Part shown: positions 1-36,429 of the stretch, piece by piece
Numbering within the stretch: the first letter of the stretch is position 1
How the letters are laid out: every line of letters starts with the position of its first letter
Origin: a virus
Lineage: Duplodnaviria; Heunggongvirae; Uroviricota; Caudoviricetes
Direction: 5' to 3' (one strand)
DNA length: 42,461 nt
IMG/VR virus record: IMGVR_UViG_2703719365_000009
Translations under genes and position numbers: made by a program
Notes under the pieces: generated by a model
What the model saw: only the letters and a program-made list of their open reading frames with translations
Databases searched by the model: none
What the model was told of the DNA's origin: nothing

Positions 1-1349
1 CCATCGATGCCGCCAGCCGCACCCTGACGCTGGACCGTGAGGTGACACTGCCGGAGACCGGTGCCGCCACGGTGAACCTGATTAACGGCAGCGGTAAGCC
101 GGTGAGTGTGGACATCACCGCACACCCCGCGCCGGACCGGATACAGGTCAGTACCCTGCCTGATGGTGTGGAGACATACGGGGTGTGGGGACTCTCCCTG
201 CCGTCACTGCGCCGTCGCCTGTTCCGCTGTGTCTCCGTCCGGGAAAACACGGACGGCACCTTTGCCATCACGGCGGTGCAGCACGTACCGGAAAAAGAAG
301 CCATCGTGGATAACGGTGCCCGCTTTGAGCCGCAGTCAGGTTCCCTGAACAGCGTCATCCCACCGGCAGTACAGCACCTGACGGTGGAGGTGAGTGCAGC
401 TGACGGCCAGTATCTGGCGCAGGCTAAATGGGACACGCCGCGGGTGGTGAAGGGCGTGCGCTTCAGTCTGCGCCTGACCAGTGGTAAGGGAACGGATGCC
501 AGACTGGTGACCACCGCCATCACCGCAGACACGGAGCACCGTTTCAGCGGCCTGCCGCTCGGGGAATACACCCTGACGGTGCGGGCGATAAACAGCTATG
601 GCCAGCAGGGTGAACCTGCCACCACCACCTTCCGGATTGCCGCACCGGCAGCACCGTCGCGGATTGAGCTGACGCCGGGCTATTTTCAGATAACCGCCAC
701 GCCGCATCTTGCCGTTTATGACCCGACGGTACAGTTTGAGTTCTGGTTCTCGGAAAAGCGGATTGCGGATATCAGGCAGGTTGAAACCGCAGCCCGCTAT
801 CTTGGCTCGGCGCTGTACTGGATAGCTGCCAGTATCAATATCAAACCGGGCCATGATTATTATTTTTATATCCGCAGTGTGAATACTGTTGGCAAATCGG
901 CATTCGTGGAGGCTGTCGGTCGGGCGAGCGATGATGCGGAAGGTTACCTGGATTTTTTCAAAGGAGAAATCGGGAAAACACATCTGGCCCAGGAGCTGTG
1001 GACGCAGATTGATAACGGTCAGCTTGCGCCGGACCTGGCTGAAATCAGGACGTCCATTACGAATGTCAGCAATGAAATCACGCAGACCGTCAATAAAAAA
1101 CTGGAAAATCAGAGTGCGGCAATCCAGCAGATACAGAAAGTTCAGGTTGATACAAATAATAACCTGAACAGCATGTGGGCCGTGAAACTGCAGCAGATGC
1201 AGGACGGACGCCTTTATATTGCGGGTATCGGTGCCGGTATTGAGAATACGCCAGCAGGAATGCAGAGTCAGGTGCTGCTGGCGGCAGACAGGATTGCGAT
1301 GATTAATCCTGCGAATGGCAACACAAAGCCGATGTTTGTAACCAGGTGA
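1..1349 (+). pseudogene. J: Host specificity / tail tip protein J (lambda J-like), upstream portion; frame enters from window start and is cut by the Mu-like insertion
   Basis: Frame open from nt 3 (5-prime partial). Translation ends ...[22 protein letters not shown] then TR-stop at the insertion end; the conserved continuation [15 protein letters not shown] reappears in frame at 40716. Confidence 0.85.
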
Positions 1350-1515
1350 ATCATTTGATACCGACAAGGGTTTTAGTGAAAGGAGGTGAAATCACCTGTA
1401 AGATGCTGAAATAAAACAGGTGATGTATACTTCGGCCGGAAAACTCTTTTTGATACCGACTGCTCAACAAATAGTCAAAAGATCAAAAAACGGCGACACA
1501 TTTGATACTGCTAAT
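1347..1515 (+). repeat. Left end (attL-like): three transposase-binding-like repeats
   Basis: TTTGATACCGAC at 1354-1365 and 1449-1460, TTTGATACTGC at 1501-1511; first site TGAATCATTTGATACCGACAAG resembles the Mu L1 site as recalled; same motif inverted at the right end. Confidence 0.6.
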
Positions 1516-6323: not shown

Positions 6324-6605
6324 GTGAAAAAAAATCTCATTGCATGGGCGTGGTCGAGTGGTCTTATTGAGTTTGGTTACGTCCTGCCGGAAGGTGCATT
6401 GCCGATAGTTGCCGGAAAGCCTGCCACGGTACGGCATGTGATTGAGGTTATGGCGCGTCATGGACGTGATGAACAGGAGCAGTTACTGGTTCCGGGGATA
6501 CCGGAAGCGGTGACGGAGGAAGAAGCCTTTAATGCCATGATTCGGTTCTGCCGTGAGGTCAGACGCCGGGTCAGTTATCCAAACAGAACGAGGACCAGAG
6601 GATGA
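6324..6605 (+). CDS. Hypothetical early protein
   Basis: 93 aa; GTG start with RBS GGAGGTG; tightly packed in early operon. Confidence 0.5.
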   Translation: MKKNLIAWAWSSGLIEFGYVLPEGALPIVAGKPATVRHVIEVMARHGRDEQEQLLVPGIPEAVTEEEAFNAMIRFCREVRRRVSYPNRTRTRG

Positions 6606-11172: not shown

Positions 11173-11458
11173 TTCTCTGTTGTTCTGGTGCTTATATATC
11201 ACATCCTTTTTCGGTGCATTTGTTATTACCCGGTGGTTATGTCGAAAAATCATCTGCTTTTTTGATAAAAGATATCCGGTTGAACGGGCGGCTGATGCAC
11301 TCATTCAGCAGGCCATTGTGTTATATAGCGGTGAATTTTTCTGCCGAATAACAACCAGAGATGGCTGGCACATAATGATTATTCCGCCAACACACCATGT
11401 CCGGTGGGATGAGGCAGAAAAGGCTTTCCATGTCCGTAAAAAGGTAAATACGGTATGA
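11162..11458 (+). CDS. Small membrane protein (one predicted TM helix)
   Basis: 98 aa; hydrophobic segment LLFWCLYITSFFGAFVIT. Confidence 0.45.
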   Translation: MDNSSLLFWCLYITSFFGAFVITRWLCRKIICFFDKRYPVERAADALIQQAIVLYSGEFFCRITTRDGWHIMIIPPTHHVRWDEAEKAFHVRKKVNTV

Positions 11459-11964
11459 GAGGAAAACTGATATCCGCCATTCATGTGGCAAAGCGCGAGC
11501 TTGCCCTTGATGATGAGGCTTATACATTCGCGCTGCTGGCCGCCACCGGCAAAACCAGCTGCCGGGATATGTCACCGGATGAGTTATCCCGCGTGCTGGA
11601 TGTTTTCAAAAAACGCGGTTTTAAAGTGCGTCAGAACCCGGTTAACCGGGCCTTAAAACCGGGTACGGTGACCGCTAAAATTCGCGCCATCTGGAAGGTG
11701 ATGCACCGGCAGGGCTTTATCTCTGATGGTGCGGAAACCGCCCTTAACCGCTGGGTGAAATCGCAGACGGCCGCGCAAAACGGCGGCGAAGGTGTGGCAA
11801 ACTGGCAGTGGCTGGAGCAACACCCCGCCCTGGCCTCAGATGTGCTGGAGCGTCTCAAGCGATGGCACCGCCGCAAAATGCTGGCCGCGATGGGAATGCC
11901 CGAACGCACGCTGATGGGGTATGACGCCGTTTGCAGGCAGTATGAAAAATCACTTCCCCGTTAA
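11455..11964 (+). CDS. GemA-like protein (Mu gp16 family)
   Basis: 169 aa; N-terminal KRELALDDEAYTFALLAATGKTSCRDMSPDELSRVLDVFKKRGFKV resembles Mu gp16/GemA family as recalled. Confidence 0.6.
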   Translation: MRGKLISAIHVAKRELALDDEAYTFALLAATGKTSCRDMSPDELSRVLDVFKKRGFKVRQNPVNRALKPGTVTAKIRAIWKVMHRQGFISDGAETALNRWVKSQTAAQNGGEGVANWQWLEQHPALASDVLERLKRWHRRKMLAAMGMPERTLMGYDAVCRQYEKSLPR

Positions 11965-11970
11965 CCCCAA

Positions 11971-11998
11971 ATCCCGCCATAACGCGGGATTTTTATTT
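11971..11998 (+). terminator. Rho-independent terminator ending the early operon
   Basis: ATCCCGC-CATAAC-GCGGGAT hairpin followed by TTTTATTT. Confidence 0.7.
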
Positions 11999-12033
11999 TA
12001 AACTTACCGGGAACGCGAGAACCGGAGGCTGAT

Positions 12034-12459
12034 ATGGCAGAAACTCAGATGAGCATGTTTGGTGGTGACAGTGAGCAACTGCACGCCCTTATCGACCGCC
12101 TTGATGACATCCCTGATGATGTTCTCAAAAAGAACTGGCCGCGGACCCTGTCAGAACTGGTTGAAGTCACCGGCGCAGAACTTCAGCGTCAGGGGATTGA
12201 GCCGGTACTGGCCGGCAAACTGGCACGCAAGGTGGCTGCGGCTCAGGCAGCCTATATGGGCGGACGGGGTTATTACCTGCCGGTCGGGGAATCTCTCTTT
12301 GCCGAGCTGCGAAACAATGAGATATTTTCGCGCTGGGACCGGGGCGAGAAAATTGAATCCCTTCGCCGCCATTACCGGATGTCAGAAACCCAGATTTATA
12401 CCGTCATACGTGAACAGCGCCGTCTGCATCTGGCAAGAACACAACCGCCACTTTTCTGA
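12034..12459 (+). CDS. Mor/C-family transcription activator (C-like by position, immediately upstream of lys)
   Basis: 141 aa; C-terminal YLPVGESL...IYTVIREQRRL resembles Mor/C family HTH region as recalled; RBS GGAGG. Confidence 0.75.
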   Translation: MAETQMSMFGGDSEQLHALIDRLDDIPDDVLKKNWPRTLSELVEVTGAELQRQGIEPVLAGKLARKVAAAQAAYMGGRGYYLPVGESLFAELRNNEIFSRWDRGEKIESLRRHYRMSETQIYTVIREQRRLHLARTQPPLF

Positions 12460-12530
12460 TATTCCGCAAAGCCTGCCGCCTTTCCTTCACCGTTACGCTG
12501 ACTCAGAGAACATCATGAGACAGCGTAACA

Positions 12531-13031
12531 ATGCCAAAACTCCCCGCACCACTGCGTAAAAAGCTGATTGCCCTTGTTCTGGCCGGTGCCGGGACGTTCA
12601 CGATTGCCACGCATTACACCGGTTACTGGGAAGGGAAAGAAAACTCCACGTATATCGATCCCACCGGTACACCCACCATCTGTTACGGCCATACCGGCCC
12701 GGATGTGAAACCGGGTATGACCCTGACGGATGAAGAATGCCTGGAACTACTGGAAAAGGACATGAAATGGGCCTTTGCGGCCATTGATCGGCGTGTTCAG
12801 GTGCCGCTTACCCGTGGTCAGACGGTGGCGCTGGCTTCGTGGATCTTCTGGGCCGGTGAAACGAACTTTCGCAACTCCACGCTTCTGCGCCTGATCAATG
12901 CCGGGCAGATGCCCGCGTCCTGTAAGCAGTATATCCGCTGGATTTATTCAAAGGGGGTGAAGCTCCCCGGCCTTGAGGCCCGCCGTTCGGCGGATGAATG
13001 GTTATGTCGCTACGATTTGCCGAAAGTCTGA
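12531..13031 (+). CDS. lys: Endolysin, lysozyme-type with N-terminal signal-anchor-release (SAR) segment
   Basis: 166 aa; Gly/Ala-rich weakly hydrophobic N-terminus LIALVLAGAGTFTIATHY followed by YWEG...D...T lysozyme-like catalytic region. Confidence 0.8.
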   Translation: MPKLPAPLRKKLIALVLAGAGTFTIATHYTGYWEGKENSTYIDPTGTPTICYGHTGPDVKPGMTLTDEECLELLEKDMKWAFAAIDRRVQVPLTRGQTVALASWIFWAGETNFRNSTLLRLINAGQMPASCKQYIRWIYSKGVKLPGLEARRSADEWLCRYDLPKV

Positions 13032-19661: not shown

Positions 19662-19782
19662 CGGTCAGTGGCGGGGGTCGAACCCGCATACATGATCCAC
19701 CCGGAGGCAGGCACCGACTTTACCAGTTAAGCGTACACTGACCGCCTGCTTATTTTATATTCATATTTTATACGGAGGCAAT

Positions 19783-20256
19783 ATGTCATCCATTGATGCC
19801 GCCGTCGTTGTTGACGTTACGCGTCTCCAGCGGGTCTTTGCCCGGCTTCAGTTTGTGGGTGGCGGAAAAGACCTGGCCCGCAGTGTGGCGTCCAGCCTTC
19901 TGTCATCGTCAGAAATGGCGTTTGAACAGGAAAAAGAGCCGGACGGCGAACGCTGGCATGACTGGTCAGATCCTTACCGCAAGTGGCGTACCCGTAAGGG
20001 ATACATGCCCGGCAAAATCCTGACGCTGAACGGCGATCTGGCCCGACGCCTGACCACGGATTATGGCGACACCTGGGCGCTGATTGGATCAAATGAGCCT
20101 TATGCGGCCATTCATCAGTGGGGTGGCCTGCCAGGTATGCCGCCGGGACCGGCGGCCATTGGTGCACGTCCGTATATGGGCTTTGATCAGGTGGCAGAGC
20201 AGGAGATCATGGACGAAATCAGAAAACGCTTTAAAAAGGCCACAGAAACGCCTTAA
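19783..20256 (+). CDS. Virion morphogenesis protein (Mu G-like)
   Basis: 157 aa; RBS GGAGG; Mu G is about 156 aa at this position. Confidence 0.75.
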   Translation: MSSIDAAVVVDVTRLQRVFARLQFVGGGKDLARSVASSLLSSSEMAFEQEKEPDGERWHDWSDPYRKWRTRKGYMPGKILTLNGDLARRLTTDYGDTWALIGSNEPYAAIHQWGGLPGMPPGPAAIGARPYMGFDQVAEQEIMDEIRKRFKKATETP

Positions 20257-20432
20257 TTGTTTAAGGTATGCAAATGCATTACCTTACCCCCTTCAGGCGC
20301 GTGTCGTGATTTTCTAACCTGTATTTAACGGGCTTTAAAATCTGCGTGAAGCGCCTTTGTATTTTTCCCCTGGAAGCACTTCCTGAAATCCCGCAAAACC
20401 CGCCCTGAAAATTCCCGGCTTATGCTGCCGGA
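20257..20432 (+). promoter_or_regulatory. G-I intergenic region: candidate late promoter and candidate central strong gyrase site
   Basis: 176-bp gap at the midpoint of the element; contains TCCCGCAAAACCCGCCC (20389-20405), similar to the motif upstream of lys. Confidence 0.4.
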
Positions 20433-21557
20433 ATGAAGACGAAAAACACGCCCAAACTTGCTTATGCCATTCTGAATGCCATCAGCCTGTCCGCAGACGG
20501 GGACGGTGACTGGTGTCAGATCATGCCAGCCGGTCGGGTAAAGGCCCGTGACGGTCGCCCGGAAAAACCGGCCGAGGGCTGGCTGATCAACCATGCAGCC
20601 GTTGAGCGCATGGTCTCCCGGGTTGTGGCGCTCAATCAGCCGGTGAAAATTGACTACAACCACCAGACCCTGATTAAGGGGCATCAGGCACCGGCTGCCG
20701 GTTTTGTGATGGCCTCACCGGAGAATTTTCGCTTCAGTGAAGAGCGTGGCTTCGAGGTGCGCCCGAAGTGGAACCCTCCGGCCCTTGAACATCTGCGTAA
20801 TAACGAATTCCCCTGGTTTTCACCGGTGATTGGCTATGACGAGAACACCGGCGAACCTGTCGAACTTCGGATGCTGGCTATTACCGGTGACCCCGGTCTG
20901 ACCGGCATGAATCCTGTCGCCGCGCTGTCGGCGGATGACCTTTATAACGCCTTAAACCCTCCTTTAAAGGATACCTCCATGAATGAGCAATTACGCCAGT
21001 TGCTGACGGCGCTCGGTCTGACCGTGGCTGACGGTGACGAATTTACGCCGGAGCTGGGCACGGCGGCGCTGTCTGCCCTCACCGGGATCAAAACCCGTGC
21101 GGATGCACACGACAACCTGAAAACACAGGTCGCCAGTCTGTCGGCAGAGCTGGAAACCGCAAAAGGCACACCGGCTGGCGGCAGTATTGATCTGACGAAA
21201 TACGTGCCCGTTGAAACGTATAACGCCCTGCGTACCGAATACGTTGCGCTGTCGGCGCAGCACGGCAGCACCACGCTGGAGCAGGTGCTGGACAAGGCTG
21301 AATCCGAAGGGCGCATCTTCAAAAGCGAACGCGGCTATCTGGAACAACTGGGCGGGCAGATTGGCGTTGCGGCACTTTCTGCACAGCTTGACGCCCGCCA
21401 GCCGGTTGCGGCCCTGACCTCTCTTCAGACCGACACCGTGACCGTGCCGGATAAAAAGACTGCCACCGCTGCGCTGTCGGCTGAAGATATCGCGGCCGCC
21501 AAACTGCTGGGTAAAACCGAAGCCGAGTTCCTGAAAATGAAAGAGGAAATGCAATAA
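20433..21557 (+). CDS. Head protease / scaffold protein (Mu I-like)
   Basis: 374 aa; position before major head subunit. Confidence 0.8.
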   Translation: MKTKNTPKLAYAILNAISLSADGDGDWCQIMPAGRVKARDGRPEKPAEGWLINHAAVERMVSRVVALNQPVKIDYNHQTLIKGHQAPAAGFVMASPENFRFSEERGFEVRPKWNPPALEHLRNNEFPWFSPVIGYDENTGEPVELRMLAITGDPGLTGMNPVAALSADDLYNALNPPLKDTSMNEQLRQLLTALGLTVADGDEFTPELGTAALSALTGIKTRADAHDNLKTQVASLSAELETAKGTPAGGSIDLTKYVPVETYNALRTEYVALSAQHGSTTLEQVLDKAESEGRIFKSERGYLEQLGGQIGVAALSAQLDARQPVAALTSLQTDTVTVPDKKTATAALSAEDIAAAKLLGKTEAEFLKMKEEMQ

Positions 21558-36330: not shown

Positions 36331-36429
36331 GACGCTCTCTTTGTTGGGCCTTTACTGAATTAACGCAAAATGGCGTTTATCGGTCTGTGGATATGATAAT
36401 TCAGTTTATTCAGGAACAGGCTGATTATT

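What the first reader, a model, noticed from the sequence alone, without database searches (positions are those of the whole stretch)
12463..12480. Shared motif upstream of lys and of head gene I (candidate late-activator site)
TCCGCAAAGCCTGCCGCC (12463-12480, upstream of lys) and TCCCGCAAAACCCGCCC (20389-20405, upstream of I) share a CCGCAAA-CC-GCC core. Both lie in the two intergenic gaps where Mu places the late promoters Plys and PI. This fits a binding element for the Mor/C-family activator.
Basis: partly seen in the sequence, partly recalled or inferred. Interest (0 to 1): 0.4.

Follow-up and report, generated by a model that had tools for sequence, protein, structure and literature searches.

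The report
Late-promoter activator box of Mu-like prophage
The shared motif is real and is the core of a 25-bp conserved box, placed where phage Mu's C protein binds its late promoters, in front of the lysis gene and the head gene I of an E. coli Mu-like prophage; this is an expected kind of element, with a recognition sequence different from Mu's.

Summary
Observation confirmed. Both strings are at the stated coordinates, and the similarity is far above chance. Aligned without gaps, the two gaps share a 25-bp box, TTyCTGAwATyCCGCAAArCCyGCC (12453-12477 and 20380-20404; 20/25 identical). In both, the box lies 16 nt upstream of a TAnGCT -10-like hexamer, and there is no -35 hexamer.

If the hexamers are the -10, the box spans -53 to -29. 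Published Mu work puts C binding at a footprint of about -55 to -30, with a dyad centred at -43.5. The core CCGCAAArCC aligns with Mu's conserved CCATAAyCCC.

The only Mor/C-family gene in the element (12034-12459; 39% identical to Mu C) sits directly upstream of lys.

In viral contigs, 66 of 77 exact matches to box plus hexamer lie in either the C-to-lys or the G-to-I gap of Mu-like elements. The box is kept where the flanks cannot be aligned.

A third copy precedes the ORF after gin. None was found for the tail gene P or for com/mom.

Interpretation supported, but transcript starts and protein binding are untested. This is a new member of a known kind, of modest interest. Two side observations are more unusual: a predicted leaderless I mRNA, and a lys hairpin that contains the promoter.

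The parts
12034..12459 (+). Gene for the only Mor/C-family activator in the element, C-like. Its last two codons and its TGA stop lie inside the lys box.
   Evidence: Pfam Mor PF08765, E 2.8e-32. 39% identical to Mu C and 27% to Mu Mor.
12453..12477 (+). 25-bp activator box of the predicted Plys (TTTCTGATATTCCGCAAAGCCTGCC), predicted -53 to -29.
   Evidence: In relatives whose activator is 83-88% identical, the box is invariant except for one G-to-T change.
12463..12480 (+). It covers the promoter-proximal part of the box plus 3 non-conserved spacer bases.
12494..12499 (+). Predicted -10 hexamer of Plys (TACGCT). The predicted transcript start is about 12505-12506.
   Evidence: Fixed CGCAAA-N23-TAnnnT spacing. 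The hexamer is invariant in close relatives and is TACTCT or TAATCT in distant ones.
12492..12529 (+). Hairpin GTTACGCTG...CAGCGTAAC. It encloses the -10 hexamer and the predicted start, and ends 1 nt before the lys ATG.
   Evidence: (96-nt stretch 12440-12535): MFE -21.5 kcal/mol, z -3.2. (49-nt stretch 12488-12536): -20.1, z -6.4, against -2.1 for the transcript from the predicted start. Not conserved across clades.
20380..20404 (+). 25-bp activator box of the predicted PI (TTCCTGAAATCCCGCAAAACCCGCC), predicted -53 to -29.
   Evidence: Conserved in I loci found by protein homology, where the flanks cannot be aligned.
20421..20426 (+). Predicted -10 hexamer of PI (TATGCT). The ATG of I at 20433 falls on the predicted +1.
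   Evidence: The arrangement hexamer, 6-7 nt, ATG is present in all relatives examined.
36352..36397 (+). Third candidate late promoter: box TTACTGAATTAACGCAAAATGGCGT (36352-36376) plus TATGAT (36392-36397), upstream of the 679-aa SASA-esterase/DUF6645 ORF that follows gin.
   Evidence: Identical in the relatives examined.
11965..11992 (+). Weak partial copy, CCCCAAATCCCGCC (11965-11978). It forms the left arm of a 9-bp hairpin plus T-run (11969-11992) between gemA and the activator gene. Intrinsic terminator; any role as an activator site is unresolved.

Best explanation
The motif is the promoter-proximal half of a roughly 25-bp binding box for the prophage's single C-like Mor/C-family activator. 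One box sits in each of two activator-dependent sigma-70 late promoters, Plys and PI.

Each promoter has a weak -10 hexamer (TACGCT or TATGCT) and no -35 hexamer. The box spans about -53 to -29. Its two conserved sub-blocks are TTyCTGA upstream and CCGCAAAnCC downstream.

By analogy with Mu C, the activator would bind as a dimer or tetramer, cover the -35 region and recruit or activate host RNA polymerase. That would switch on lysis and head genes late in infection. A third copy probably drives the cargo gene after gin.

Shown here: the sequence element, its fixed register to the hexamer, its gene context, and its conservation. Inferred: the transcript starts, the binding of the activator, and the dependence on it.
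For: 1. Statistics: the 20/25 ungapped match is reached by 0 of 500 shuffles. There are 2 hits against 0 expected for the 25-mer. There are 3 exact hits of CTGANNTNNCGCAAA, all on the + strand and all intergenic.
2. Register: a PWM scan that also requires TAnnnT at the right spacing returns only four + strand sites: upstream of the activator gene, lys, I and the ORF after gin.
3. No sigma-70 promoter with both -35 and -10 hexamers is predicted at either site.
4. Position relative to Mu: the four annotated Mu late promoters align on their -10 hexamers, with the conserved CCATAAyCCC at -42 to -33. The window's CCGCAAArCC falls in the same columns. Mu C footprints about -55 to -30 and binds a dyad centred at -43.5 (PMC2582627). 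The C complex covers about 26 bp (bioRxiv 10.1101/2025.05.02.651988).
5. A C-like activator gene lies immediately upstream.
6. Conservation at lys: the box and the -10 are invariant in close relatives while the spacer diverges.
7. Conservation at I, in loci found by protein homology: majority-base frequency is 0.86 for the box, 0.62 for the 40 nt upstream and 0.72 for the spacer.
8. Distribution: of 77 exact matches to box plus hexamer in 2.9 million viral contigs, 35 are in the C-to-lys gap and 31 in the G-to-I gap. These include lys sites of a clade whose activator is only 55% identical, which were not used to define the pattern.
9. Clades that share the box share states at the residues aligning with Mu C's DNA-contact positions (E98, T/S/A116, E120), and these differ from Mu C.
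Against: - No transcript start has been mapped, so all -N coordinates rest on a predicted -10 hexamer.
- Dyad symmetry is weak: TTyCTG matches the complement of CGCAAA at only 3-4 of 6 positions.
- No box was found for the tail gene P or for com/mom, although Mu has C sites there.
- At lys, the upstream sub-block overlaps the last codons and the stop codon of the activator gene, so part of its conservation there may reflect coding constraint.
- The link between activator residues and box sequence rests on two phylogenetic groups only.
- The viral-contig pattern was derived from these same sequences, so most of those matches are not independent.
Confidence: 0.78

Rival explanations
1. The motif is the counterpart of Mu's known 10-bp match between the lys and I promoters (TCCCGCACCT). 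That element has no assigned function and is not the C-binding site, so the similarity may reflect shared ancestry or some other factor.
For: Mu Plys contains TCCCGCACCTGCC and Mu PI contains TCCCGCACCTCCCGCAAAC. These resemble the window's TCCGCAAAGCCTGCC and TCCCGCAAAACCCGCC. The 10-bp match is noted in PMC4461284 (Fig. 1 legend).
Against: Aligned on the -10 hexamers, the Mu 10-mer lies at -36 to -27 in Plys but at -26 to -17 in PI. It therefore has no fixed register. The window motif has an identical register in both promoters and in all relatives, and it falls on the C-box columns.
Confidence: 0.07
2. The box is recognised by something other than the phage activator. Candidates are a host factor, RNA polymerase itself (an UP-like or unusual -35 element), or another phage protein.
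For: No binding data exist. The box is conserved among activators that are 55-100% identical, which would also be expected for a host-factor site.
Against: The position and extent match the Mor/C footprint class. Exact matches are confined almost entirely to Mu-like elements that encode this activator clade: 66 of 77, with the remaining 11 at roughly the number expected by chance. Mu, which has a different C protein, has a different sequence in the same columns.
Confidence: 0.1
3. The similarity is chance, or is carried along with conserved neighbouring sequence, and has no function.
For: The lys leader and the start of the lys gene are also nearly invariant in close relatives, so part of the conservation could reflect a recently shared module.
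Against: Shuffle tests argue against chance. The spacer between the box and the -10 diverges while both of those stay fixed. In the I gap the box persists where the flanks cannot be aligned.
Confidence: 0.03

Closest known systems
Phage Mu C-dependent late promoters Plys and PI (C-binding site)
   Same: The gene contexts are the same (C|lys and G|I). A weak -10 hexamer is present and there is no -35 hexamer. A conserved block covers about -53 to -29, with CC..AA..CC in the same columns as Mu's CCATAAyCCC. A Mor/C-family activator is encoded just upstream of lys.
   Different: The core sequence is CCGCAAAnCC, not CCATAAyCCC. The dyad symmetry is much weaker than at Pmom. The element has only one Mor/C gene, whereas Mu has Mor and C. 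There is no terminator between the activator gene and lys, and the box overlaps the activator's stop codon. No copies were found for P or com/mom. The ATG of I sits at the predicted +1, whereas in Mu the I ATG lies about 26 nt after the inferred +1, behind an annotated ribosome-binding site.
Phage Mu middle promoter Pm and its Mor site (dyad at -51 to -36, centred at -43.5; PMC4287176)
   Same: In Mu the predicted hairpin terminator after mor lies inside the annotated Pm region. The window likewise has a hairpin plus T-run just upstream of its activator gene, and the left arm of that hairpin resembles the box (11/14).
   Different: With the window hairpin centred at -43.5 there is no usable -10 hexamer. 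The upstream CTGA..T half of the box is missing. No separate Mor protein is encoded. Whether this site is an activator target is unresolved.
Mu 10-bp match between Plys and PI (TCCCGCACCT; PMC4461284)
   Same: It is a C/G-rich string of similar sequence shared by the same two promoters.
   Different: In Mu it sits in different registers in the two promoters and is not the mapped C site. Here the motif is in a fixed register and coincides with the box.
Phage T4 lysozyme gene e, early versus late transcripts (recalled from memory, not checked here)
   Same: This applies to the side observation only. A hairpin that occludes the translation start of a lysis gene contains the late promoter, so only late transcripts would be translatable.
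   Different: The phage and the activator system are unrelated. Here the hairpin is predicted only in the window's own clade and is untested.

Membership tests
Mu-type C-dependent late promoter (C box) | Lies upstream of late operons at the Plys (C|lys) and PI (G|I) positions | tested here: met
   Pfam identities of the flanking genes compared with the Mu annotation.
Mu-type C-dependent late promoter (C box) | Recognisable -10 hexamer but no -35 hexamer | tested here: met
   TACGCT and TATGCT lie at a fixed spacing. The hexamers 17 bp upstream (GCCTGC and ACCCGC) match TTGACA at 0 of 6 positions (direct reading). No sigma-70 promoter is called at either site.
Mu-type C-dependent late promoter (C box) | Conserved activator site of about 25 bp covering roughly -55 to -30, centred near -43.5 | tested here: met
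   The box spans -53 to -29 relative to the predicted -10 hexamer. It falls in the same columns as the conserved block of the four Mu promoters. Caveat: the transcript start is predicted, not mapped.
Mu-type C-dependent late promoter (C box) | Imperfect dyad symmetry of the site | tested here: inconclusive
   TTyCTG against the complement of CGCAAA agrees at 3-4 of 6 positions, centred at about -44.5 (direct reading). This is comparable to Mu Plys and far weaker than Pmom.
Mu-type C-dependent late promoter (C box) | Sequence of the Mu C box (CCATAAyCCC) | tested here: not met
   The lys-site core CCGCAAAGCC matches Mu Plys CCATAATCCC at 6 of 10 positions. This implies a related but different specificity.
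Mu-type C-dependent late promoter (C box) | A cognate Mor/C-family activator is encoded in the element | tested here: met
   PF08765, E 2.8e-32. 39% identical to Mu C.
Mu-type C-dependent late promoter (C box) | Present at all four late promoters (lys, I, P, mom) | tested here: not met
   Found at lys, I and the ORF after gin. No convincing copy between 21.5 and 35 kb or upstream of com/mom.
Mu-type C-dependent late promoter (C box) | The activator binds the site, and transcription depends on the activator | not testable with these tools
   Needs EMSA or footprinting and reporter assays.
Intrinsic terminator | G+C-rich hairpin followed by a T-run | tested here: not met
   Neither main site forms such a structure. 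Only the weak copy at 11965-11992 does.

The most novel reading that the evidence does not exclude
In this widespread E. coli Mu-like prophage clade, one C-like protein may replace the Mor-then-C cascade, and the late promoters may be wired to translation in two unusual ways.

First, Plys fires from inside a hairpin that occludes the lys start. Read-through transcripts from the activator gene, which has no terminator after it, could then not make endolysin, and only late transcripts could.

Second, PI starts at the A of the I ATG and gives a leaderless protease/scaffold mRNA.
Probability: 0.3. Interest if true: 0.5.

Novelty: new member of a known kind. Interest (0 to 1): 0.3.

Why it matters
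The box gives a concrete, testable recognition sequence (CTGAnnTnCCGCAAAnCC, then 20 nt, then TAnnnT) for a C-like activator that is 39% identical to Mu C. The prophage that carries it is found in 231 of 5426 complete E. coli genomes, including O157:H7 and O26 strains. This allows late promoters of such prophages to be annotated. It also offers a natural specificity variant to set against the recent Mor/C structures.

The analysis suggests that a cargo esterase gene is under late control. Beyond that, the result confirms what Mu biology predicts.

Tried and rejected
- PP and Pmom counterparts: PWM and core-only scans of 21.5-35 kb gave nothing with a usable -10 hexamer. The com/mom upstream region (39582-39697) has a GATC cluster but no box. 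The gaps before G and before 26611 have no box either.
- Other partial hits: those at 6412 and 8521 lie inside early ORFs, have no correctly spaced -10 hexamer, and score within the shuffle range. I treat them as chance.
- Terminator or RNA-structure reading of the two main sites: rejected. There are no Rfam or tRNA matches.
- Covariation of the lys hairpin across clades: RNAalifold found no shared structure. In distant clades the pairing is weak or replaced by another structure. The hairpin idea is therefore supported only thermodynamically, and only in the window's clade.
- Co-variation of box sequence between the lys and I promoters within divergent genomes (L054, L063, L066, L067, which have GCGTAATCCC or CCGTAAACCC boxes at I): this could not be done, because the lys search did not retrieve those contigs.
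- Papers: Margolin 1989 and Chiang & Howe 1993 are not held. Mu promoter coordinates were therefore inferred from the record's 67-bp promoter features. They are consistent with the published -43.5 centre at Pmom.
- No paper on the late promoters of this prophage type was found.

Full report
**What the window is.**
- The window holds a Mu-like prophage inserted in a lambdoid tail-fibre region. Residues of J and lom flank it at 40581-42078.
- The region around the finding is 98-99% identical to the 'inserted Bacteriophage Mu-like phage' annotated in two Stx-converting phage records.
- It occurs in 231 of 5426 complete E. coli genomes, including O157:H7 and O26 strains.
- Around site 1 the gene order is GemA (11455-11964), one Mor/C-family protein (12034-12459) and lysozyme (12531-13031). 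Around site 2 it is G (19783-20256) and the Mu-like protease I (20433-21557).
- The activator is 39% identical to Mu C and 27% identical to Mu Mor. No second Mor/C gene lies between gemA and lys, whereas Mu has mor, three small genes and then C.

**Checking the observation.**
- The core CCGCAAANCCNGCC matches exactly only at those two places. With one mismatch allowed there are 4 hits against 0.43 expected.
- Without gaps, the similarity extends upstream: 12453-12477 (TTTCTGATATTCCGCAAAGCCTGCC) and 20380-20404 (TTCCTGAAATCCCGCAAAACCCGCC) are 20/25 identical.
- None of 500 dinucleotide-preserving shuffles of the two upstream regions exceeded 18/25.
- The degenerate 25-mer has only these two hits in the window at up to 3 mismatches, with none expected.

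**Anatomy of the two sites.**
- In both sites CGCAAA is followed after exactly 23 nt by a TAnGCT hexamer: TACGCT at 12494-12499 and TATGCT at 20421-20426.
- The hexamers 17 bp upstream of these (GCCTGC and ACCCGC) match TTGACA at none of 6 positions. A consensus scan calls no sigma-70 promoter at either site.
- A PWM scan that also requires TAnnnT at the right spacing returns only four + strand sites in 42 kb. All are intergenic: upstream of the activator gene (weak), lys, I, and the ORF after gin.
- CTGANNTNNCGCAAA has three exact hits: lys, I and 36355.

**Comparison with Mu.**
- The Mu record annotates four 67-bp late promoters. Written out, they align on their -10 hexamers: TAGACT, CAAACT, TATCCT and TAAGAT.
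- They share CCATAAyCCC (CAATAACCAC in Pmom) 30 nt upstream of the hexamer.
- With +1 placed 7 nt after the hexamer, Pmom's TTAT-N6-ATAA dyad is centred at -43.5. This agrees with the literature.
- The literature reports that C binds a 16-bp imperfect dyad centred at -43.5, that the footprint is about -55 to -30, and that -52 to -34 is needed in Plys (PMC2582627). A recent preprint describes a C tetramer that covers about 26 bp, with an upstream A site and a downstream B site.
- The window's CCGCAAArCC falls in exactly the CCATAAyCCC columns. Against Mu Plys (CCATAATCCC), the lys-site core CCGCAAAGCC is identical at 6 of 10 positions.
- The 25-bp box matches the extent of the footprint. Its two conserved sub-blocks, TTyCTGA and CCGCAAAnCC, are plausible counterparts of the A and B sites.
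It is therefore not the C site in Mu and is not the functional counterpart here.

**Relatives.**
- In viral contigs whose activator is 83-88% identical, the lys box is invariant apart from one G-to-T change. The hexamer and leader are invariant, and the spacer between them has diverged.
- For I loci found by protein homology (32 loci, 19 distinct sequences), the majority-base frequencies are:

| Segment | Majority-base frequency |
|---|---|
| Box | 0.86 |
| 40 nt upstream | 0.62 |
| Spacer | 0.72 |
| Hexamer | 0.91 |

- Two clades cannot be aligned upstream of I, yet both keep TTnCTGAnnTnCCGCAnAnCC and the spacing to the hexamer.
- More distant I relatives carry CCGTAAACCC or GCGTAATCCC in the same place. 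These grade towards Mu's CATAACCCC.
- An exact scan of 2.9 million viral contigs for CTGANNTNCCGCAAANCC-N20-TANNNT gave 77 matches. Of these, 35 have C upstream (32 of them with lys confirmed downstream) or, in one case, only lys downstream; 31 have G upstream and/or I downstream; and 11 are unrelated, roughly the number expected by chance.
- The lys sites of a clade whose activator is only 55% identical were not used to build the pattern, so they are independent confirmation.
- Two further lys loci found by protein homology have a variant box (CTAA and CCGCAAT). They keep the same CCGCAA-N24-hexamer spacing.
- Activators of all box-sharing clades share E98, T/S/A116 and E120 (preceded by Arg) at positions aligned to residues reported to contact DNA in Mu C, where Mu C has R98, Q116 and R120 (preceded by Ala). 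This fits a changed specificity, but it rests on two groups only.

**Other copies.**
- The third box, at 36352-36376 with TATGAT at 36392-36397, precedes a 679-aa SASA-esterase/DUF6645 ORF. That is where Mu has Pmom. The box is identical in relatives, including three whose esterase protein is only 60% identical.
- The weak copy at 11965-11978 is the left arm of a 9-bp hairpin with a T-run, an intrinsic terminator after gemA. It is conserved in relatives. It lacks the upstream half of the box, so I cannot tell whether it is also an activator target.
- No copy was found for the tail gene P or for com/mom.

**Mechanism, with what is shown and what is inferred.**
- Shown: the element, its register, its context and its conservation.
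- Inferred from the Mu paradigm: the C-like protein binds the box, substitutes for -35 recognition, and activates sigma-70 RNA polymerase at Plys, PI and the promoter after gin.
- The transcript starts are predictions.

**Side observations.**
- At lys, the -10 hexamer and the predicted start lie inside a hairpin (12492-12529) whose right arm ends 1 nt before the ATG.
  - A read-through RNA folds at -20.1 kcal/mol (z -6.4), against -2.1 for an RNA starting at the predicted +1.
  - There is no terminator between the activator gene and lys, so this could restrict endolysin translation to late transcripts.
  - The pairing is not conserved in distant clades, so this remains a hypothesis.
- At I, the hexamer is followed by 6-7 nt and then the ATG in every relative examined. 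No earlier in-frame start exists, because a TGA lies at 20406-20408.
  - PI transcripts would therefore be leaderless. In Mu, by contrast, the I ATG lies about 26 nt after the inferred +1, behind an annotated ribosome-binding site.
  - The N-terminus of I aligns with that of Mu I from residue 9.

**Verdict.** This is an ordinary but previously undescribed member of the Mor/C-dependent promoter class, with a recognition core different from Mu's.

Noticed in passing
window 12492-12531: The hairpin GTTACGCTG...CAGCGTAAC encloses the predicted Plys -10 hexamer and start, and ends 1 nt before the lys ATG. Read-through RNA folds at -20.1 kcal/mol (z -6.4), against -2.1 for the predicted late transcript. 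There is no terminator between the activator gene and lys. This may gate endolysin translation to late transcripts, as I recall for T4 gene e. The pairing is not conserved in distant clades.
   Followed up: partly
window 20415-20435: The predicted PI -10 hexamer TATGCT sits in the loop of CCGGC...GCCGG. The ATG of I falls on the predicted +1, which implies a leaderless mRNA. The arrangement hexamer, 6-7 nt, ATG is kept in all I relatives examined, including divergent ones with CACACT or TACGAT hexamers. In Mu, by contrast, the I ATG lies about 26 nt after the inferred +1, behind an annotated ribosome-binding site.
   Followed up: partly
window 36352-38469: A third box-plus-hexamer copy precedes a 679-aa ORF with SASA (sialate O-acetylesterase-like) and DUF6645 domains. 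The ORF lies after gin, where Mu has Pmom. Residues about 100-673 of the protein resemble proteins in many non-Mu viral contigs. It is likely a late-expressed cargo gene.
   Followed up: partly
window 11969-11999: A perfect 9-bp hairpin plus T-run lies between gemA and the single activator gene, followed by TATTTT. This recalls Mu, where a predicted terminator after mor lies inside the annotated Pm region. In one relative (L021) the left arm has been replaced at a mosaic junction in the loop.
   Followed up: partly
window 20300-20335: GTATTTAACGG in the G-I gap matches the sequence a few dozen bases downstream of the annotated gyrase cut site in the same gap at the centre of the Mu genome. It probably belongs to a conserved strong gyrase site region.
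   Followed up: no
window 20352-20365 and the I-upstream regions of the distant relatives (L050, L055-L061): A second short block, TTTTCCC(C)TG, lies about 8-9 nt upstream of the PI box in both clades, even though the surrounding sequence cannot be aligned. Its function is unknown.
   Followed up: no
window 39582-39900: A com-like ORF begins at 39698 and precedes mom (39851-40588). A cluster of GATC sites lies upstream (about 39630-39660), as in Mu's Dam/OxyR-controlled mom region. No activator box was detectable there.
   Followed up: partly
window 19665-19690: GGCGGGGGTCGAACCCGC in the F-G gap resembles the T-arm and acceptor end of a tRNA on the minus strand. ARAGORN finds no tRNA gene.
   Followed up: partly
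window 1-1400 and 40581-42078: The prophage is flanked by lambdoid tail-tip J and lom sequences, so it sits inside another prophage. This agrees with the Stx-phage records that annotate an inserted Mu-like phage.
   Followed up: partly
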